Shown piece by piece: positions 1,930 to 34,704 of a DNA stretch of 35,688 nt; the first letter of the stretch is position 1, and every line of letters starts with the position of its first letter. The DNA is from a virus. The DNA is taken from the UHGV virus genome UHGV-0123446, one strand, 5' to 3'. A program made the translations under genes and the position numbers. The notes below the pieces were generated by a model. The model searched no databases, had not been told where the DNA came from, and saw nothing but the letters and a program-made list of their open reading frames with translations.

Positions 1930-2121
1930 TTATCGCGAGTTTTTAGTACAGATTTTTTTTGATTTACTAATAGTTCCATCATTGCAAACGAACTTTCCAT
2001 CGGAGGTACAGTGAGAGACACCTCCCTTTTTCCCAGAACAAGGATAATTTTTAGCATAGGTAGTTAGTGGGTTTAATAACAAAGAGCATGATAAAACCAC
2101 AAAAAATACCTTACCAAGCAT
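1930..2121 (-). CDS. Small secreted cysteine-rich, lysine-rich protein (63 aa, predicted signal peptide), moron-like cargo between cI and int
   Basis: Hydrophobic N-terminal signal [23 protein letters not shown] then a 40-aa mature part with 4 Cys; strong SD (ggagg) upstream of the ATG; AT-rich relative to neighbours. Confidence 0.5.
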
Positions 2122-2136: not shown

Positions 2137-2712
2137 TTACCTAACGTACTTAATTGTTAAACTTATAATTTTCCCAATTATTTCAACATCTTCTATCTTG
2201 CACTCGAAGGCTCTGTTTCCACCTTCAACGAAGATTTTTCCACCGGGTAAACGAGTAATGTCGCGGATTGTTATTTCGCCATCAATACTTATTACCCATT
2301 TACCGTCACGTATATCATCAAATTCTTTATCACAAATAAATTCAGAATTGTTATCTGTGATGACAAAAGGTTTTTTAAACGTAGAGGGTAGAAATCCCTT
2401 ATCAAAAATATAAAAACCGTCTTCACGCAAGGCACCATCAGATAATACATATTTAGCAACTTCCATAGTATTTGTATTACCTGAAGTTTGCTTTGAACCA
2501 TGTCCGGTTGTGAGCCAATTAAGCGAGGTGCCCGTTTCAAGGGCGCACTGGATTACCCATTCTGCTGGGAATGAGTCACGCATGTAGCGTGTGGCGAGTG
2601 TACTTTTAGAGATTCCTAAATGATCGCACAACGCCTGTCGAGTTTTGAATCCATAAGCTTCTACCATGCGCTCTATAGCGCCTCGTCCGCCTTTCTCCAA
2701 ATTCATGGTCAC
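2137..2712 (-). CDS. cI: Prophage immunity repressor, phage 186 CI-like (191 aa, N-terminal HTH)
   Basis: Size and position (upstream of int, divergent from apl/cII); HTH-like segment TRQALCDHLGISKSTLATRYMR; resembles 186 CI rather than the ~99-aa P2 C. Confidence 0.7.
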   Translation of the reverse strand: MTMNLEKGGRGAIERMVEAYGFKTRQALCDHLGISKSTLATRYMRDSFPAEWVIQCALETGTSLNWLTTGHGSKQTSGNTNTMEVAKYVLSDGALREDGFYIFDKGFLPSTFKKPFVITDNNSEFICDKEFDDIRDGKWVISIDGEITIRDITRLPGGKIFVEGGNRAFECKIEDVEIIGKIISLTIKYVR

Positions 2713-4636: not shown

Positions 4637-5487
4637 GCACCATCCTGAAATGGGCAGGAAATAAAACCGCCATAATGTCCGAACTGAAAAAGCATCTTCC
4701 TGCTGGCCCGCGACTGGTTGAACCTTTCGCGGGTTCCTGTGCAGTGATGATGGAGACGGATTATCCCAGCTATCTTGTTGCGGATATTAATCCTGATTTA
4801 ATCAACCTCTATAAAAAGGTTGCTGCTGATTGTGAGGCGTTTATATCTCGTGCCAGAGCTTTATTTGAGGAAGCAAACAGGGAGGTGGCTTATTACAACA
4901 TAAGGCAGGAGTTTAATTACTCCACTGAAATTACTGATTTCATGAAAGCGGTATATTTCCTGTATCTCAATCGTCACGGTTACCGTGGTTTATGTCGCTA
5001 TAACAAGAGCGGGCATTTCAACATTCCCTACGGTAATTATAAAAATCCGTATTTCCCTGAAAAAGAAATTCGCGCATTTGCAGAGAAAGCCCAGCGGGCA
5101 ACGTTTATCTGCGCCAGCTTTGATGAAACGCTGGCGATGTTGAAGGTGGGGGATGTGGTGTATTGCGATCCGCCTTATGACGGTACGTTTTCCGGCTATC
5201 ACACTGATGGTTTCACTGAAGATGATCAGTATCACCTGGCATCCATTCTTGAACATCGGTCATCAGAAGGACATCCGGTCATTGTTTCTAACAGTAACAC
5301 GTCTTTGACCCGGTCCCTTTATCGTAATTTCACTCACCACTACATCAGGGCGAAACGCAGCATCGGCGTTGCAGCGGGGGAGGGAAAATTTGCAACAGAG
5401 ATGATTGCCACTAAATCTGCTAATTGGTTTAGTGCCGATTTTAGTAGGGGACGTGACTCTACTGTTATTTTCGGGGTGCAAGTGTGA
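4633..5487 (+). CDS. Orphan DNA adenine methyltransferase (Dam family, N6-adenine); ORF-track start 4573 is an extension
   Basis: N-terminal SAM-binding motif LKWAGNK...EPFAGSCAV and catalytic DPPY motif ([10 protein letters not shown]); no adjacent restriction endonuclease. Confidence 0.85.
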
Positions 5488-6314
5488 AAGAAATGCACCA
5501 CGGAATTCATCATTTCCATGGGACGCCTGTCTGGGGAAGTGCTGGCGACGTTCATCGTATTGCGGTGAGCGGAGCTGGCGCTTTCGTCTCCTATGTACGA
5601 CCAGATCAGATTGCGGCGTCCATTCAGCACGCTCAGGTCGTCGGCATTGATAACGGCGCATTTTCTGCATGGGTGCGTGGGCTAAAAATTAACTGGAGTG
5701 ATTTTTATAAATGGCTCCTGAACTATTACCACCATCCTAAGGTCGCTTTTTTTGTCATTCCTGATGTTGTGGACGGAGGTGAACGTGACAATGATGCCCT
5801 GATAAACGAAGTTCCGAAAATGTTCTACGGGAAGGCAACTCCCGTCTGGCATCTGCACGAGTCAATCGATCGGCTTATCGAGCTATGTCGTGAATGGCCT
5901 CGTGTCTGCTTTGGATCGTCTGGTGAATATGCGGCTATCAGAACTGCGCACTGGCATCGTCGTATGCAGGACGCTTTTGAAGCAATTTATTGCCGACACA
6001 ATTTCAAAACAGCTGTTCATGGTTTGCGCATGCTTGACGGTCGTGTGTTGGGAAATTACCCACTGGCGACTGCCGACAGTACAAATCTTGCCTGCAATGT
6101 CCCCAAATTTAATAGCAAATATCCTGAGCTGACGCGGGCTATTCAGGAGGCTGAGTATTCGCGCAATCTGACGGAAAAGGAGCTGAAAGCTGTCATTCTG
6201 AAAAACCGTTGCGCAATTTTAAAAGGTGCAATTGAAGCTGTTCGCCCACCTTCAGTTTCTGATTGGCTGTCGAATGGTTTGCAGCCTTCACAGCTCGAAC
6301 TGGAGATTGCGTAA
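5484..6314 (+). CDS. Uncharacterised protein (about 275 aa) translationally coupled to dam; function unknown
   Basis: GTG start overlaps the dam stop (GTGA), stop overlaps the gene A start (TAATG); no recognisable nucleotide-binding or zinc motif. Confidence 0.5.
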
Positions 6315-8686
6315 TGAACTACAGCTATTCCTGGAATGCTGAGAAAAAAGCAATCAATCCTTACGTAGAGACAGAAGAGCAATCTTCAGTTTCTGCGCTT
6401 TCAAACCTGATCGCTCTGTACGCTGCCGATAACGAGCAGGAACAGCTGCGCCGCGAGGCACTGAGTGATCAGGTCTGGGAGCGTTATTTCTTTAATGAAT
6501 CCCGTGATCCTGTCCAGCGCGAAATGGAGCAGGATAAGCTCATTAGTCGGGCAAAGCTGGCGCATGAGCAGCAGCGTTTTAATCCAGATATGGTCATTCT
6601 GGCGGACGTCAATGCCCAGCCTTCCCATATCAGCAAGCCGCTGATGCAACGTATTGAATACTTCAGCAGCCTGGGCAGGCCAAAGGCTTATTCCCGCTAT
6701 TTGCGTGAGACGATTAAGCCATGTCTGGAACGGCTGGAGCATGTACGCGACTGTCAGCTATCCACTTCTTTTCGCTTTATGGCAAGCCATGAAGGGCTGG
6801 ACGGCCTGCTGATCCTGCCTGAAATGAGTCAGGATCAGGTGAAACGCCTGTCCACCCTGGTAGCTGCGCATATGAGCATGTGCCTTGATGCAGCTTGTGG
6901 CGATTTGTATGTCACCGATGACGTTAAGCCAGAAGAAATCCGCAAGACATGGGAAAAGGTGGCAGCGGAAACCCTGCGTCTGGATGTCATCCCGCCTGCG
7001 TTTGAGCAACTCCGCCGGAAAAGAAACCGCCGTAAACCCGTGCCCTATGAACTCATTCCGGGTTCGCTGGCGCGTATGTTGTGCGCTGACTGGTGGTACC
7101 GGAAATTATGGAAGATGCGTTGCGAATGGCGGGAAGAGCAGTTGCGTGCTGTCTGCCTGGTCAGCAAAAAAGCATCTCCCTATGTCAGCTATGAAGCCGT
7201 GATGCATAAACGTGAGCAGCGCCGTAAGTCGCTGGAGTTTTTTCGTTCTCATGAACTGGTGAACGAAGACGGCGACACGCTGGACATGGAGGATGTGGTA
7301 AACGCCAGCAGCAGCAACCCTGCGCATCGCCGCAATGAGATGATGGCCTGTGTTAAAGGCCTGGAGCTTATCGCGGAAATGCGCGGTGACTGCGCCGTTT
7401 TCTACACCATCACCTGTCCGTCACGTTTCCATTCCACGCTAAATAATGGCAGGCCCAACCCAACTTGGACAAATGCGACGGTAAGACAAAGCAGTGATTA
7501 TCTGGTCGGCATGTTTGCTGCATTTCGTAAGGCGATGCACAAAGCCGGATTGCGGTGGTATGGCGTGCGGGTGGCTGAGCCGCATCATGACGGTACAGTT
7601 CACTGGCACCTGTTGTGTTTTATGCGCAAAAAAGACCGCCGCGCCATCACTGCATTACTGCGTAAGTTTGCCATCCGTGAAGACCGCGAGGAACTGGGCA
7701 ATAACACTGGGCCGCGCTTTAAGTCTGAGTTGATTAACCCGCGCAAAGGTACGCCAACAAGCTACATCGCGAAATACATCAGTAAGAACATTGACGGGCG
7801 TGGTCTGGCTGGCGAGATCAGCAAGGAAACGGGTAAATCTCTGCGTGATAACGCTGAATACGTTAATGCCTGGGCGTCTCTGCATCGTGTTCAGCAATTC
7901 CGCTTCTTTGGCATTCCGGGGCGTCAGGCTTACCGTGAACTGCGATTGCTGGCTGGTCAGGCGGCAAGGCAACAGGGTGACAAAAAAGCAGGTGCGCCGG
8001 TACTGGATAACCCGCGCCTTGATGCCATTCTGGCTGCAGCTGATGCTGGTTGCTTTGCCACCTACATCATGAAGCAGGGCGGCGTACTGGTTCCCCGTAA
8101 ATATCACCTCATCAGAACCGCTTATGAAATCAACGAAGAGCCGACCGCCTATGGCGATCACGGTATTCGTATTTATGGCATCTGGTCACCCATTGCAGAG
8201 GGCAAGATCTGCACTCATGCAGTGAAGTGGAAAATGGTTCGTAAAGCCGTTGACGTTCAGGAGGCGGCAGCCGACCAGGGCGCTTGCGCCCCTTGGACTC
8301 GTGGCAATAACTGTCCCCTTGCTGAAAGCTTGTACCAACAAGGGAAAGACAAATCAGCTGATGGGGATACCAGAACGGATATCACCCGCATGGATGACAA
8401 GGAATTGCACGATTACCTGCACAGTATGAACAAAAAAGAGCGCCGGGAACTGGCTGCAAGGTTACGCCTGGTGAAACAGAAACGGCGTAGAGACTACAAA
8501 CAGCGAATTACAGATCATCAGCGACAGCAGCTCGTCTATGAACTGAAGTCCAGAGGATTTGATGGCAGCGAGAAAGAGGTCGATTTACTCCTTCGCGGTG
8601 GCAGTATTCCGTCAGGAGCAGGCCTGCGTATCTTCTATCGGAACCAGCGTTTGCAGGAAGATGATAAGTGGCGGGATCTGTATTAA
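6314..8686 (+). CDS. A: Replication initiation protein gpA (rolling-circle replication endonuclease), P2/186 family
   Basis: About 790 aa, last gene of the early operon; start ATG overlaps the upstream stop; ORF-track start 6263 is an extension. Confidence 0.85.
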
Positions 8687-8778
8687 TTACGCGGGTTAAC
8701 AATTCGTGCTCTTAATAATACCAGGCATATCAGGCTGATGAACGTAAAAAAACGTTTTACATCAGTAAGATTATTATA

Positions 8779-8798
8779 TACTGTAAATATAAACAGTG
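8779..8798. promoter_or_regulatory. LexA (SOS) box taCTGTaaatataaACAGtg
   Basis: CTGT-N8-ACAG with AT-rich spacer, about 40 bp upstream of the 8839 ORF and the DinI-like gene. Confidence 0.6.
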
Positions 8799-8838
8799 GT
8801 TATGTATACAGTATTGCTTTGGTGTCATAGGAGGAAAG

Positions 8839-9027
8839 ATGCAGGACTATTTTTTGGAGTCTTTGAAGCTCCAGCGCATTGATTTTTTTCTTAAGCTTGT
8901 AGCGGCTAGTGAGTGTAGTGATGAAGAGAAGGGGCTGGCCCTGCAGTGGGTTTCTGAACTGACAGATGAACTCATGGCAAAAATCAGAACCCATGAATAC
9001 AACCGCTCAATGGATGTCATCAGCTGA
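8839..9027 (+). CDS. Small protein (62 aa) downstream of the LexA box; possible N-terminal part or partner of a Tum-like antirepressor
   Basis: aggagg SD just upstream of the ATG; ends 10 bp before the DinI-like ORF in a different frame. Confidence 0.4.
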   Translation: MQDYFLESLKLQRIDFFLKLVAASECSDEEKGLALQWVSELTDELMAKIRTHEYNRSMDVIS

Positions 9028-9037
9028 GGTGACTTTT

Positions 9038-9271
9038 ATGCGCATTGAAATAATGATCGATAAAGAGCAGAAGATTAGCCAGTCTACACTGGACGCCCTT
9101 GAATCCGAGCTTTACCGCAATCTGCGCCCCCTGTATCCCAAAACGGTAATTCGTATCCGCAAAGGTAGCTCTAACGGTGTGGAACTGACCGGACTGCAAC
9201 TGGACGAAGAAAGAAAACAAGTGATGAAAATTATGCAGAAGGTGTGGGAAGACGACAGCTGGCTGCATTAA
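9038..9271 (+). CDS. DinI-like protein (77 aa)
   Basis: MRIEIMIDKEQKISQSTLDALESELYRNLRPLYPKTVIRIRKGSSNGVELTGLQ...VWEDDSWL resembles E. coli DinI (MRIEVTIAK...) along its length; LexA box upstream. Confidence 0.7.
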   Translation: MRIEIMIDKEQKISQSTLDALESELYRNLRPLYPKTVIRIRKGSSNGVELTGLQLDEERKQVMKIMQKVWEDDSWLH

Positions 9272-9404
9272 GAAACGTTGCTGGCGTCTGAACTTGTTTC
9301 TGGCGTCAGCAAGGTTGAACAACGAGCCCTTGCGAGGCGTTAGCTCTGTAGTGCATGTCTATGCCGCATGAGATCGCATGATCGTTTGAGGATCGTTTTT
9401 GCTA

Positions 9405-9431
9405 AGGCCCGCCAGAACTGGCGGGCTTTTG
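9405..9431 (+). terminator. Rho-independent terminator (GC-rich 9-bp stem gcccgccag/ctggcgggc then TTTTG)
   Basis: Inverted repeat followed by a T-run, downstream of the DinI-like gene. Confidence 0.5.
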
Positions 9432-9475
9432 CGTAGATCATGCAGGTGCATGAAAACCACTACATAAAGCGGGCA

Positions 9476-9494
9476 GGCGTGGCGGGGATACGAG
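9476..9494. other. Candidate cos site (cohesive-end sequence)
   Basis: GGCGTGGCGGGGATACGAG: the first 13 nt match my recollection of the 186 cohesive end (GGCGTGGCGGGGAAAGCAT; P2 GGCGAGGCGGGGAAAGCAC); lies in the A-to-Q interval where cos is expected. Confidence 0.4.
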
Positions 9495-9504
9495 CGCGCG
9501 CTCA

Positions 9505-9533
9505 CTGACAGTTTTCAGAAAAGTATATATAAT
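9505..9533 (+). promoter_or_regulatory. Near-consensus sigma70 promoter (CTGACA, 17-bp spacer, TATAAT) for the 9571 gene
   Basis: -35 at 9505..9510 and -10 at 9528..9533; gene start at 9571. Confidence 0.45.
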
Positions 9534-9570
9534 CGCCTGAAAGATCTATACGTGCAGTGGAAATCATCAA

Positions 9571-10605
9571 ATGGATAAAAGATATCAGGTTTTTGTTAGT
9601 TCAACTTTTGCTGATCTTGAAGAAGAAAGACAGGAAGTAATGCAAGCACTGCTGGAGCTTGATTGTATGCCAGCAGGAATGGAATTATTTCCAGCAACAA
9701 ATAGTGATCAGTGGAGTTTAATAAAAAAAATAATTGACGATAGTGATTATTATATTGTTATCTTGGCAGGGCGTTATGGTTCAATTGGTCCTGATGGAAT
9801 AAGCTATACAGAAATGGAGTATCGTTATGCTTTGGAAACTGGTAAGCCAGTTATAGGTTTTATTCATAAAGATAAAAGTAACCTCCCCGCAAAACGTTGT
9901 GAGTCAAACCCTGAAGGCGTAGAAAAACTAAAGGCTTTCGAAGAGCTAGTTAAAACAAAATTATGTCGTTTTTGGGAGTCTCCTGCAGAGTTAGGTAGCC
10001 AGGTTAGCAGAAGTTTGATTAGACTAATTAAAGAATGTCCTGCAATTGGGTGGGTTAAAGGAAATTTAGTAACTAATGATGGTGATGCAAAGGAAATATT
10101 GAAATTAAAAAGGCGAATTGAGGAGCTTGAAAGTCAACTTGTATCAAGTATGACTGAAGCGCCTGCAGGTGCAGAAAAACTATCTCAAGGAGATGAGCTT
10201 TTTGAATTGGATTATGAATTCTGTGTGTCGCCTACAGAATGGAGACATAATGGTGAAGAATATACCGATAAGGTCAAATTAAGCTGGAACGATATTTTTT
10301 CATATGTTTCGCCTTTGATGATAGATGAGATAGTGGATGATAAGCTATATAGTGCTTTAAATAACTGTGTGCGAAATGCAGTTCAAGATATCATCTATGA
10401 GGATTTTAAAGATATGAATTTATTATCTTTAAAAGTATCTAATTCTGATTTCCAAACAATAAAAGTGCAGTTTAGGGCGCTTGGGTTAATTATTAAAAGT
10501 GAAAAGAGTAGAAGTGTTAAAGATAAAGGTACTTATTGGACTTTAACACCGTATGGCGAAAATTTAATGACAACATTGAGAGCGATTAAAAAAACTTTGG
10601 TATAG
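9571..10605 (+). CDS. Cargo protein of 344 aa with DUF4062/TIR-like N-terminal domain; candidate anti-phage defence protein
   Basis: Clean ORF with its own promoter and terminator; AT-rich; N-terminal pattern YQVFVSSTFADLEEER...DYYIVILAGRYGS...SYTEMEYRYA...GKPVIGFI recalled as the DUF4062 signature; no Walker A; coiled-coil-like stretch KEILKLKRRIEELESQL; unknown C-terminal half. Confidence 0.6.
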   Translation: MDKRYQVFVSSTFADLEEERQEVMQALLELDCMPAGMELFPATNSDQWSLIKKIIDDSDYYIVILAGRYGSIGPDGISYTEMEYRYALETGKPVIGFIHKDKSNLPAKRCESNPEGVEKLKAFEELVKTKLCRFWESPAELGSQVSRSLIRLIKECPAIGWVKGNLVTNDGDAKEILKLKRRIEELESQLVSSMTEAPAGAEKLSQGDELFELDYEFCVSPTEWRHNGEEYTDKVKLSWNDIFSYVSPLMIDEIVDDKLYSALNNCVRNAVQDIIYEDFKDMNLLSLKVSNSDFQTIKVQFRALGLIIKSEKSRSVKDKGTYWTLTPYGENLMTTLRAIKKTLV

Positions 10606-33018: not shown

Positions 33019-34704
33019 TTATCCTAATCCTGGCCATACCATGACGATGATTGTCCCTGCCAGCGTCAGCAGGACGTTGGCGATTGCATAGGTGCCCGCA
33101 TAGCCCAGCGCCGGGATGTTACTGCGAGCTGTATCACTGATGATCTCCATTGCCGGCGCGCAGGTGCGTGCGCCCATCATTGCGCCGAATAACAGTGCGC
33201 GGTTCATTCGCAATACATAAGCACCGAACAAGAAACAGATAACCACTGGCACAAGACTGACAATCAATCCGGCAATCAACATCTGACCGCCAATCGCGCC
33301 CAGGCCGTTATTAATACCGCTACCGGCGCTCAGACCAACGCCTGCCATAAACACCATTAAGCCGAACTCTTTCACCATGCTTAATGCACCCTGCGGAATG
33401 TAACCGAAGGTCGGGTGGTTAGCGCGCATAAATCCCAGCATAATTCCGGCGAATAACAACCCGGCAGCGTTCCCCATGCCGAAACTGAATGTGCTGAACT
33501 GGAAGGTGATCATCCCGATCATCAGCCCAATAACAAAGAAGGCGCAGAATGCCAGCAAGTCAGTGACCTGGCTGTGAATCGAGATAAAGCCGATGCGATC
33601 GGCGATGGTTTTTACGCGACGGGCATCGCCGCTGACTTGTAAAACGTCACCTTTGTTAAGCACGACGTTGTCATCTATCGGCATCTCAATCTGGCTACGA
33701 ATGACGCGGTTAAGGAAGCAACCGTGATCGGTCAACTTCAGTTGTGCGAGACGTTTGCCCACGGCGTTATGGTTTTTAACGACCACTTCTTCAGTGACGA
33801 TACGCATGTCGAGAAGGTCACGATCGAAAACTTCTTTGCCGTTACGGAAGCTGGGATCGAGTCGGGCGTGGGCGTCGGGATAGCCTACCAACGCTATTTC
33901 ATCTCCCATTTGTAGCACAGCATCACCGTCTGGATTCGCCAGAATCCCGTTACGTCGAATACGTTCAATGTAGCAGCCGGTTTGTCGATAAATACCCAGT
34001 TCACGCAGATTTTTGCCGTCGGTCCAGGCCACCAGCTCCGGGCCGACGCGGTAGGCGCGGATCACCGGTAAATAAACCTTACGGTTGGCATCAGTGTCCA
34101 GGCCACGTTCGCGGGCGATTTGCTGGGCGCTGGTCTGTAAGTCCTGATGCTGCAATTTCGGCAAGTAACGCGCACCAACAATCAAACTCACCAGACCGAT
34201 TAAATAGGTTAAGGCATACCCGAGGCTCAGATTATCCAGTGCCAGTGAGAGCTGCCTGCTTTCCATGCCGGAATGACGCAGTGTATCGCCAGCACCGACC
34301 AGAACCGGTGTCGACGTCATAGAGCCAGCTAACATACCGGCCGTCAGGCCAATATCCCAGCCAAACAGCTTACCTAACCCTAAGGCGATCACCAGCGCAC
34401 TGCCAACCATCACCAGTGCTAACATTAGGTAATTTTTCCCATCGCGAAAAAAAATGGAAAAAAAGTTCGGTCCGGCTTCGACCCCGACGCAGAAAATAAA
34501 CAGCATAAAGCCAAGATTAAGCGCGTCGGTGTTAATGCTGAAATGTTGTTGGCCTAATAACAGCGATACGACTAAAACGCCAATGGAATTACCCAGTTGG
34601 ATCGAACCAAGTCGTAATTTCCCGAGACATAGCCCAAGCGCGAGGACCACAAATAATAACAGAATGTAATTCCCATTTAACAATTCGGCGACGTTTATAT
34701 TCAC
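33019..34704 (-). CDS. ybjL: Putative transport protein YbjL (AAE-family transporter with two cytoplasmic regulatory domains)
   Basis: 561 aa with multiple TM segments at both ends and a central soluble region; recognised as E. coli YbjL; position next to ybjM/grxA. Confidence 0.85.

What the first reader, a model, noticed from the sequence alone, without database searches (positions are those of the whole stretch)
8779..9271. LexA-boxed module with a DinI-like gene, resembling the phage 186 SOS (tum) operon, possibly as two separate ORFs
Seen: a well-formed LexA box (CTGT-N8-ACAG, 8779..8798) sits about 40 bp upstream of a 62-aa ORF (8839..9027, strong aggagg SD), followed 10 bp later in another frame by a 77-aa ORF (9038..9271) that aligns along its length with DinI. 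Established (recalled): phage 186 is SOS-inducible through a LexA-controlled operon at the right end of its genome encoding the Tum antirepressor, whose C-terminal portion is DinI-like. Inference: this prophage carries a Tum-type SOS-induction module, unlike P2 itself, which is not UV-inducible. The 62-aa plus 77-aa arrangement could be a natural two-gene form or a frameshift-split tum, which would matter for inducibility.
Basis: partly seen in the sequence, partly recalled or inferred. Interest (0 to 1): 0.55.

Follow-up and report, generated by a model that had tools for sequence, protein, structure and literature searches.

The report
Known two-gene Tum SOS-induction module
This is the DNA-damage switch of a Fels-2/186-type prophage: a LexA-repressed pair of small genes, an antirepressor and a DinI-like protein. 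It is already known from phages PSP3, Fels-2 and the E. coli HS prophage DuoHS, so it is correctly read but ordinary.

Summary

- **What is there:** a LexA box (8779-8798), a 62-aa ORF (8839-9027) and a 77-aa DinI-family ORF (9038-9271), all as described. They lie between replication gene A and cos of a Fels-2-like prophage inserted between rcdA and ybjL in E. coli.
- **The 62-aa ORF:** BLASTP finds no match to 186 Tum. Profile methods show it is a remote homologue of the Tum N-terminal domain (hhalign 96.8%, E 2.5e-10; reciprocal PHROG hits).
- **Direct experimental link:** it is 98% identical to ECHS_RS04495, the gene named tum in prophage DuoHS. Deleting that gene, or making lexA non-cleavable, abolishes mitomycin C induction (PMC12055606).
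- **Split or frameshift:** the split is natural. In 33 species-level loci the 62-codon ORF is kept under purifying selection (dN/dS 0.03-0.15). The 20 DinI-like ORFs found downstream start 8-12 nt later, in all three relative frames.
- **Immunity:** the repressor is 186 CI-type, not P2 C-type.

Three additions go beyond the finding. A second, overlapping LexA box forms a colicin-type double operator. The DinI-like gene is missing in about a third of relatives. Near-identical antirepressors sit beside CI proteins that have diverged strongly.

The parts
8756..8761 (+). Putative -35 hexamer TTTACA of the tum-operon promoter, the positional equivalent of 186 p95. An A-tract at 8746-8752 precedes it.
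   Evidence: Read. TTTAC is nearly invariant in 26 aligned loci. It lies 17 nt before TACTGT, as in the annotated 186 p95 (TTCACA, 18 nt, TACTGT). The generic promoter scan did not call it, because the -10 matches only 3 of 6.
8779..8784 (+). Putative -10 hexamer TACTGT. It is the left half of LexA box 1. An alternative -10, TATACT at 8777-8782, would give a 15-nt spacer.
   Evidence: Same hexamer, and same overlap with the LexA box, as the annotated p95 -10 of phage 186. Assigned by positional homology, not mapped.
8779..8798 (.). LexA box 1 (distal): TACTGTAAATATAAACAGTG
   Evidence: Only CTGT-N8-ACAG in the window. 17/20 to consensus, with 0 of 100 shuffles matching. Present with 0-1 core mismatch upstream of the orthologue in 31 of the 33 species loci; L010 is cut short upstream and L038 is decayed.
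8794..8813 (.). LexA box 2 (proximal, weak left half): CAGTGGTTATGTATACAGTA. It overlaps box 1 by 5 bp, giving a colicin-type double SOS operator.
   Evidence: The pattern occurs once in the window against 0.02 expected, and once in each of 20 fetched loci, always upstream of the tumA-like gene. Window 8779-8816 matches the ColE1 cea operator at 31 of 38 positions with the same geometry. Box 2 of Fels-2 is identical to the proximal ColE1 box.
8829..8834 (+). Shine-Dalgarno AGGAGG of the tumA-like gene
   Evidence: GGAGG is conserved in the alignment of 26 loci.
8839..9027 (+). tumA-like gene: a 62-aa antirepressor, remote homologue of the N-terminal domain of 186 Tum
   Evidence: phrog_698 at 3.6e-38, plus cross-hits shared with 186 Tum and PSP3 TumA. 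hhalign of family against family: 96.8%, E 2.5e-10, residues 1-46 on 1-46. 98% identical to ECHS_RS04495 and to Fels-2 STM2728. dN/dS 0.03-0.15. AlphaFold2 gives a helical hairpin, pLDDT 88.
9026..9031 (+). Ribosome-binding site GAGGTG of the DinI-like gene. It overlaps the tumA stop codon, a layout that would allow translational coupling.
   Evidence: A G-rich stretch directly after the stop is present in the junctions of most loci with a DinI-like gene, although the stop codon and the gap length vary.
9038..9271 (+). tumB / dinI-like gene, 77 aa
   Evidence: Pfam DinI 6.6e-23. 78% identical to PSP3 TumB and 41% to 186 Tum residues 71-145. Matches E. coli DinI 1GHH at E 2.7e-6. dN/dS 0.07-0.15. 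The upstream in-frame extension listed as a 101-aa ORF is not conserved.
9274..9316 (+). Strong hairpin directly after the operon's last stop codon. It has no T-run. It is the positional counterpart of the partial terminator t95a of 186.
   Evidence: RNA fold of 9272-9445: -72.8 kcal/mol, z -3.75. 186 annotates t95a at the same place. A similar sequence (GTTGCTGGCG...) follows the tumA stop directly in three DinI-less loci, L017, L027 and L040.
9404..9431 (+). Intrinsic terminator: GC-rich stem GGCCCGCCA / TGGCGGGC followed by TTTT. Likely end of the operon transcript.
   Evidence: The simple terminator scan did not list it.
9476..9494 (.). cos site GGCGTGGCGGGGATACGAG. The tum operon therefore sits at the right end of the packaged genome, as in 186.
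   Evidence: The first 13 bases equal the 186 cohesive end GGCGTGGCGGGGAAAGCAT. The bases before it resemble the 186 right end.
2137..2712 (-). 186-type CI immunity repressor, the presumed target of the antirepressor
   Evidence: Pfam Phage_CI_repr 2.8e-33 and Phage_CI_C 1.3e-28. 33% identical to 186 CI and 95% to DuoHS CI.

Best explanation
This is the SOS-induction operon of a Fels-2/DuoHS-type prophage of the P2/186 family (Peduoviridae), in its usual two-gene form.

In a lysogen, LexA binds an operator that overlaps the -10 of the operon promoter and keeps the operon off. The operator here is a double, colicin-type one. DNA damage activates RecA, LexA cleaves itself, and the operon is transcribed from about 8790 to the terminator at about 9431.

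The first product, a 62-aa helical-hairpin protein equivalent to PSP3 TumA and to the N-terminal domain of 186 Tum, binds the 186-type CI repressor and stops it binding DNA. That releases the early lytic promoter and starts lytic growth. The second product, equivalent to PSP3 TumB and the C-terminal part of 186 Tum, is a DinI homologue that probably acts on RecA filaments to tune the SOS signal. It is an accessory, not the trigger.

Shown here:
- the sequence features and their conservation;
- homology of both ORFs to the two parts of Tum;
- the 186-type immunity region;
- near-identity to a gene whose deletion blocks induction.

Inferred:
- LexA occupancy of both boxes;
- binding of the 62-aa protein to CI;
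- the role of the DinI-like protein.
For: - **Context:** gpA replication gene (Pfam Phage_GPA 8.2e-128), then the LexA box, two ORFs, terminator and cos. This is the layout of 186 A-p95-tum-cos and of PSP3 A-tumA-tumB.
- **LexA box:** unique in the window, and beyond chance at the 20-mer level (17/20, 0 of 100 shuffles). It is conserved in 31 of 33 species loci.
- **Homology to the Tum N-terminus:** 186 Tum residues 7-44 hit the ORF62 family phrog_698 in register (2.4e-5). Both proteins hit phrog_8554 (2.4e-8 and 1.4e-11). ORF62 hits the PSP3 TumA family phrog_1993 (2e-3). hhalign gives 96.8%, E 2.5e-10.
- **DinI-like ORF:**
- **186-type CI and CII:**
- **Functional proof in an orthologue:** ORF62 differs by one residue from ECHS_RS04495 and CI is 95% identical. 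[quoted passage not shown]
- **Literature on the split:** PMC3121763 states that Fels-2 and PSP3 have tum split in two and that the upstream PSP3 gene carries the antirepressor activity.
- **Mechanism of Tum:**
- **Natural split:** all 20 DinI-like ORFs found in the 33 loci are separate genes. Gaps are 8-12 nt, in relative frames 0, 1 and 2, after TAA, TAG or TGA stops. Both genes are under purifying selection.
- **DinI is dispensable:** 13 loci have no DinI-like gene behind the tumA-like ORF, 12 of them with an intact ORF and box, and 4 have a truncated one.
Against: - BLASTP sees no similarity between ORF62 and 186 Tum or PSP3 TumA. Identity is about 16-18%, so homology rests on profiles.
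- Pfam has no family for ORF62.
- No LexA binding, transcript or protein data exist for this exact element.
- The promoter hexamers are weak and were not called by the generic scan.
- The DuoHS deletion could in principle lower expression of the coupled downstream DinI-like gene.
- The primary paper on Fels-2 (Bunny et al. 2002) could not be read. Its content is taken from the citing text.
Confidence: 0.9

Rival explanations
1. The two ORFs are the halves of a fused 186-type tum gene broken by a recent frameshift or nonsense mutation, so the prophage would be non-inducible or poorly inducible.
For: 186 Tum is a single 146-aa protein with both parts. The two ORFs here are in different frames only 10 nt apart.
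Against: - The same 62 + 77 aa arrangement, each gene with its own ribosome-binding site and ATG, is found in Fels-2, DuoHS and 813R9.
- All 20 DinI-like ORFs found in the species loci are separate from the upstream ORF. Gap lengths of 8-12 nt fall in all three frames, after three different stop codons.
- The reading frame upstream of the DinI ATG is open for only 1-25 codons.
- There is no homopolymer at 9020-9040 longer than TTTT.
- Both genes have dN/dS of 0.15 or less.
- DuoHS, which has this arrangement, is inducible.
- A match to the region (8690-9460) is found in 1144 of 5426 complete E. coli genomes, 707 of them covering at least 80% of it.
Confidence: 0.02
2. The DinI-like protein is the real inducer, acting through RecA, and the 62-aa ORF is a leader or accessory peptide without antirepressor activity.
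For: Only the DinI-like ORF has a curated family. ORF62 has no Pfam hit and no BLASTP similarity to Tum.
Against: - An in-frame deletion of the ORF62 orthologue alone abolishes induction.
- 12 species loci keep the LexA box and an intact ORF62 homologue but have no DinI-like gene, and 4 more have a truncated one.
- ORF62 is under strong purifying selection and is a profile-level homologue of the antirepressor part of Tum.
- In PSP3 the upstream gene is reported to carry the antirepressor activity.
- CI here has only a sub-threshold S24 peptidase match (17 bits against a 23.3-bit cut-off), so a RecA route through CI self-cleavage is not expected.
Confidence: 0.04
3. The operon is an SOS-regulated cargo module that benefits the host, for example by modulating RecA or LexA during stress, and is not the prophage induction switch in this element.
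For: It lies next to the cargo hotspot around cos. DinI homologues are common prophage cargo, for instance in the Gifsy phages.
Against: The genetic evidence from the near-identical DuoHS prophage, the homology to the 186 antirepressor, and its constant association with 186-type CI phages.
Confidence: 0.04

Closest known systems
tum (ECHS_RS04495) plus the DinI-like gene (ECHS_RS04500) of prophage DuoHS in E. coli HS
   Same: Same integration site (rcdA | prophage | ybjL) and same operon layout. TumA is 61/62 identical, the DinI-like protein 100%, CI 95%, and the double LexA operator is the same. Induction was shown to depend on tum and on cleavable LexA.
   Different: One amino-acid change (T52S), three substitutions in the operator spacer, and different cargo genes after the operon.
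Fels-2 STM2728 / STM2726.1 (Salmonella LT2)
   Same: TumA is 98% and the DinI-like protein 100% identical, with the same operator. The literature describes it as a split tum.
   Different: Fels-2 CI is only 43% identical overall (N-terminal domain 69%, C-terminal domain 28%). Fels-2 has an orf97-like gene after the operon, which is absent here.
PSP3 tumA / tumB
   Same: Two-gene form under a LexA box after gene A. TumB is 78% identical. TumA belongs to a sister family reachable by profile (phrog_1993).
   Different: TumA is not alignable by BLASTP. PSP3 has a single LexA box about 40 nt from the start and a 3-nt intergenic gap.
Phage 186 Tum (p95 SOS operon)
   Same: LexA box over the -10, position between A and cos, an antirepressor domain followed by a DinI-like domain, and a 186-type CI target.
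   Different: 186 encodes one 146-aa fusion protein with internal starts. It has a single LexA box and also carries orf97. N-terminal identity is about 16%.
Gifsy prophage dinI-gfoA / gftA operons (Salmonella)
   Same: A LexA-controlled operon that pairs a small antirepressor with a DinI homologue.
   Different: The gene order is reversed (dinI first), and the phage type and repressor family differ. No sequence comparison with the Gifsy antirepressors was made here; PMC3121763 presents them as a separate example.
ColE1 colicin (cea) double SOS operator
   Same: Two 20-bp LexA boxes offset by 15 bp. The window matches at 31 of 38 positions, and the Fels-2 proximal box is identical. Colicin operators of this kind bind two LexA dimers.
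   Different: In ColE1 the operator lies downstream of the likely -10. Here box 1 overlaps the -10. Binding of two LexA dimers has not been shown here.

Membership tests
186 Tum-type LexA-controlled antirepressor module | LexA operator overlapping the promoter of the operon | tested here: met
   Consensus-like box at 8779-8798 over the putative -10, conserved in relatives. Only the sequence was tested; LexA binding itself was not.
186 Tum-type LexA-controlled antirepressor module | Located after replication gene A, at the right end of the genome before cos | tested here: met
   gpA at 6263-8686 and cos at 9476-9494, matching the 186 layout.
186 Tum-type LexA-controlled antirepressor module | Protein homologous to the antirepressor (N-terminal) part of Tum | tested here: met
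   BLASTP is negative. Profile methods are positive: hhalign 96.8%, E 2.5e-10, and reciprocal PHROG hits.
186 Tum-type LexA-controlled antirepressor module | Partner repressor is a non-cleavable 186-type CI | tested here: met
   Pfam Phage_CI_repr and Phage_CI_C; the S24 peptidase match is below the cut-off. 33% identical to 186 CI.
186 Tum-type LexA-controlled antirepressor module | Gene is required for SOS induction; protein binds CI and blocks DNA binding | not testable with these tools
   The requirement is shown for the 98%-identical DuoHS orthologue and the binding for 186 Tum. Neither was shown for this element.
Fused single-polypeptide Tum (186 form) | Antirepressor and DinI-like parts in one reading frame | tested here: not met
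   Stop at 9025-9027, a 10-nt gap and a frame change. All 20 DinI-like ORFs found in relatives are likewise separate.
DinI family (PF06183) | Score above the Pfam gathering threshold over the whole domain | tested here: met
   81.3 bits against 24.2, profile positions 1-63 of 63. Full-length alignment with E. coli DinI 1GHH.
DinI family (PF06183) | Binds RecA filaments and modulates their coprotease activity | not testable with these tools
   Inferred from family membership only.
Colicin-type double overlapping SOS operator | Two 20-bp LexA boxes overlapping by 5 bp, the second with a degenerate left half | tested here: met
   8779-8813, matching ColE1 at 31 of 38 positions over 8779-8816. Conserved in 20 fetched loci.
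Colicin-type double overlapping SOS operator | Cooperative binding of two LexA dimers, giving tight and delayed derepression | not testable with these tools
   Known for colicin operators; inference here.
P2-type non-inducible immunity (C repressor) | P2 C-type repressor and no tum | tested here: not met
   The repressor is 186 CI-type, a CII is present, and a tum operon is present.

The most novel reading that the evidence does not exclude
The Fels-2/DuoHS-type tum operon may differ from the 186 paradigm in two untested ways.

1. Its colicin-like double LexA operator would set a higher or later SOS threshold for induction than the single box of 186 and PSP3.
2. Its antirepressor would be a 'universal' key. 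Proteins 98-100% identical sit beside CI repressors whose C-terminal domains are only about 29% identical, while a block in the N-terminal domain (RD-FPA-W-IQC-LETG) is kept. That would mean TumA targets the CI DNA-binding domain and could cross-induce co-resident Fels-2-like prophages.

The DinI-like gene would be an optional tuner.
Probability: 0.35. Interest if true: 0.4.

Novelty: already known. Interest (0 to 1): 0.2.

Why it matters
- **For annotation:** the 62-aa gene is labelled 'hypothetical protein' in RefSeq and in most of the phage records examined. A match to the region (8690-9460) is found in about a fifth of complete E. coli genomes (1144 of 5426). Naming the gene as the tumA-type antirepressor tells a reader at once that such prophages are SOS-inducible, unlike P2.
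- **For biology:** nothing here overturns current knowledge. The side observations (double operator, dispensable DinI, one antirepressor sequence beside many CI variants) are cheap to test. They bear on induction thresholds and on cross-talk between co-resident prophages.

Tried and rejected
- **BLASTP:** ORF62 against 186 Tum and PSP3 TumA, and PSP3 TumA against 186 Tum, gave no alignment. This reflects short, diverged sequences, not absence of homology.
- **Other library searches for ORF62:** nothing from Pfam, PADLOC or a PDB sequence profile search.
- **Structure:** the AlphaFold2 model is a generic two-helix hairpin. Foldseek against PDB gave only non-significant helical-hairpin matches (best E 0.49), so the fold says nothing about function.
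- **Rfam, 8600-9650:** only one chance-level miRNA hit.
- **Junction hairpin at 9016-9033:** it covers the DinI-like ribosome-binding site. I considered it as a coupling device and dropped it, because the junction sequences of relatives do not keep the pairing.
- **The 101-aa ORF at 8966-9271:** the extension is not conserved.
- **Technical failures:** The search for related loci with family alignments A3 and A5 failed for lack of conserved stretches, so the single protein was used, which limits the loci to at least 71% identity. Bunny et al. 2002 (PMC151935) is not held.
- **Heterology index:** not computed for the LexA boxes, because I do not have the published matrix.

Full report
**1. What is in the sequence**

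The window holds a complete P2/186-family prophage. It lies between rcdA (20-586) and ybjL (33019-34704), the site occupied by prophage DuoHS in E. coli HS.

The region of the finding follows the gpA replication gene (6263-8686; Pfam Phage_GPA 8.2e-128). Reading directly, it contains in order:
- an A-tract and TTTACA (8756-8761);
- 17 nt, then TACTGT (8779-8784);
- the 20-bp LexA box TACTGTAAATATAAACAGTG (8779-8798);
- AGGAGG (8829-8834);
- a 62-codon ORF (8839-9027);
- GAGGTG overlapping its TGA;
- a 77-codon ORF (9038-9271);
- a strong hairpin (9274-9316);
- a GC-rich stem plus TTTT (9404-9431; fold);
- GGCGTGGCGGGGATACGAG (9476-9494).

The first 13 bases of that last element equal the 186 cohesive end. 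Every coordinate in the finding is correct.

The CTGT-N8-ACAG core occurs once in the window, but 35 of 100 shuffles also gave at least one match, so the core alone is weak evidence. The 17/20 match to the 20-mer consensus was reached by 0 of 100 shuffles.

**2. The DinI-like ORF**

It scores 81 bits on Pfam DinI against a cut-off of 24. It aligns end to end with E. coli DinI (PDB 1GHH, E 2.7e-6). It is 41% identical to residues 71-145 of 186 Tum and 78% identical to PSP3 TumB. Across 15 species loci its dN/dS against the window copy is 0.07-0.15. The longer 101-aa reading listed by the ORF finder is not conserved.

**3. The 62-aa ORF**

BLASTP finds nothing against 186 Tum or PSP3 TumA. PSP3 TumA, annotated as 'similar to 5' end of 186 tum', is equally invisible to BLASTP against Tum, so the negative result is uninformative.

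Profile methods settle the question:
- ORF62 hits phrog_698 (3.6e-38), phrog_8554 (2.4e-8) and phrog_1993 (2e-3).
- 186 Tum hits phrog_1993 (1e-22), phrog_8554 (1.4e-11) and phrog_698 (2.4e-5, residues 7-44 on profile 7-44).
- PSP3 TumA hits phrog_1993 (2.7e-32) (all).
- I built an alignment of 28 diverse ORF62 relatives (A3) and one of 21 relatives of the 186 Tum N-terminus (A4). hhalign aligns residues 1-46 with 1-46 at 96.8% probability, E 2.5e-10.
- The shared core is E7, R13, a hydrophobic helix, C26 and the A34-L35 pair.

AlphaFold2 predicts two helices (2-23 and 28-61) at pLDDT 88. This fold is too generic for fold search to add anything. Across 29 species loci with an ungapped 62-codon orthologue, dN/dS is 0.03-0.15, so this is a real gene.

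**4. Direct link to experiments**

ORF62 is 61/62 identical to ECHS_RS04495 of E. coli HS and to STM2728 of Fels-2. The Phollow study (PMC12055606) names ECHS_RS04495 'tum'. It deleted the gene in frame, start codon fused to stop codon. The deletion mutant and a lexA(Ind-) mutant both fail to lyse or form virions after mitomycin C. CI of that prophage is 95% identical to the CI in the window.

[quoted passage not shown] The mechanism of 186 Tum is summarised: it binds CI, prevents operator binding, and is expressed from the LexA-repressed p95.

**5. Natural two-gene form, not a frameshift**

In 33 species-level loci from Enterobacterales, plus Fels-2, DuoHS and 813R9, the DinI-like ORF, wherever one is present, starts 8-12 nt after the stop of the first ORF. 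It falls in relative frames 0, 1 and 2, after TAA, TAG or TGA. No locus has a fused reading frame, and the frame upstream of the DinI ATG is open for only 1-25 codons. Many close relatives of the 186 Tum N-terminus are themselves stand-alone proteins of 63-78 aa, some named 'Tum protein' by their sources.

Of the 33 loci:
- 16 have an intact 77-aa DinI-like gene.
- 4 have a truncated one. Some of these may be assembly errors.
- 13 have none. In 12 of these the tumA-like ORF and a LexA box with 0-1 core mismatch are intact. The 13th, L038, is itself a decayed copy.

The antirepressor plus the LexA box is therefore the conserved core, and the DinI-like gene is optional.

**6. Immunity type**

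The repressor (2137-2712, minus strand) has the 186 CI helix-turn-helix and C-terminal domains and is 33% identical to 186 CI. A CII homologue follows.

**7. The operator is double**

Fifteen bp downstream of box 1 lies CAGTGGTTATGTATACAGTA (8794-8813). It has a perfect right half, an AT-rich spacer and a degenerate left half. The 38 bp at 8779-8816 match the ColE1 colicin operator (TGCTGTATATAAAACCAGTGGTTATATGTACAGTA, followed by TTT) at 31 positions with identical geometry. That sequence lies upstream of an ORF beginning METAVAYYKDG, which I take to be the colicin E1 gene; PLSDB lists no feature there. Box 2 of Fels-2 equals the proximal ColE1 box.

The combined pattern occurs once in the window against 0.02 expected. 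It occurs once in each of 20 fetched loci, always just upstream of the tumA-like gene. It is absent from 186, PSP3 and the Pantoea, Erwinia and Tatumella loci, which have one box about 40 nt, or in Tatumella about 96 nt, from the start.

Colicin operators of this kind bind two LexA dimers and give very tight repression. That the same holds here is an inference.

**8. One antirepressor beside many CI variants**

Phage records whose TumA is 98-100% identical to the window's carry CI proteins only 39-54% identical to the window's CI. For nine such elements, the median pairwise identity is 68% in the N-terminal domain and 29% in the C-terminal domain. A conserved block, SKST-A-R-(x)-RD-FPA-W-IQC-LETG, differs in 186 CI.

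This fits TumA acting on the N-terminal DNA-binding domain. It also fits simple mosaic exchange of the tum module. Because the putative recognition helix is also conserved, I do not claim that these phages are heteroimmune.

**9. Verdict**

The finding is a correct reading of a known system. The element is a member of the Tum-type SOS-induction module in the tumA/tumB form already annotated in PSP3, described for Fels-2, and genetically tested in a near-identical E. coli prophage. A match to the region (8690-9460) is present in 1144 of 5426 complete E. coli genomes. Interest is therefore low. The operator architecture and the relation between antirepressor and repressor are modest leads.

Noticed in passing
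window 9505-10605: A 344-aa protein with an N-terminal DUF4062 domain (Pfam 1.5e-29) and its own near-consensus promoter (CTGACA, 17 nt, TATAAT at 9505-9533). It sits between cos and the portal gene, where related prophages (Fels-2, DuoHS, 813R9) carry different cargo. PADLOC 2023 has no model for it. Preprints from 2026 describe DUF4062 as a TIR-like NADase antiphage defence domain ('Swarozyc', 'Evangelion', 'NIR'). It is a likely defence gene.
   Followed up: partly
window 8794-8813: A second LexA box overlaps the first. Together they form an operator almost identical to the ColE1 colicin double SOS operator. It is conserved in most enterobacterial Fels-2-type loci and absent from 186 and PSP3.
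   Followed up: yes
window 2137-2712 (CI) against 8839-9027 (TumA); loci L042-L049: TumA is 98-100% identical across E. coli, Salmonella and Klebsiella phages whose CI repressors share a median of only 29% identity in the C-terminal domain and 68% in the N-terminal domain. This suggests either a conserved N-terminal target or independent exchange of the tum module.
   Followed up: partly
loci L013, L017, L023, L027, L031-L038, L040: 13 of the 33 species loci have no DinI-like gene after the tumA-like ORF; in 12 of them the ORF and a LexA box are intact, and L038 is decayed. In L017, L027 and L040 a sequence resembling the post-operon hairpin follows the tumA stop directly, as if the DinI gene were a cleanly removable cassette.
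   Followed up: partly
window 1930-2121 (minus strand): A 63-aa ORF between cI and int, with a signal-peptide-like N-terminus and six cysteines. The equivalent ORF in E. coli HS is annotated as hypothetical (ECHS_RS23290). It may be a secreted lysogenic-conversion peptide. It has no Pfam or PADLOC hit.
   Followed up: no
window 5484-6314 (plus strand): A 276-aa ORF lies between the DNA adenine methylase gene and gpA. DuoHS and Fels-2 have no such gene there: in both, the methylase gene abuts or overlaps gpA. It was not analysed.
   Followed up: no
(relatives of the 186 Tum N-terminus): Many close relatives (74-97% identity) of the N-terminal 70 residues of 186 Tum are stand-alone proteins of 63-78 aa, some named 'Tum protein'. 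The fused 146-aa form of 186 may be the exception even within its own subfamily.
   Followed up: no
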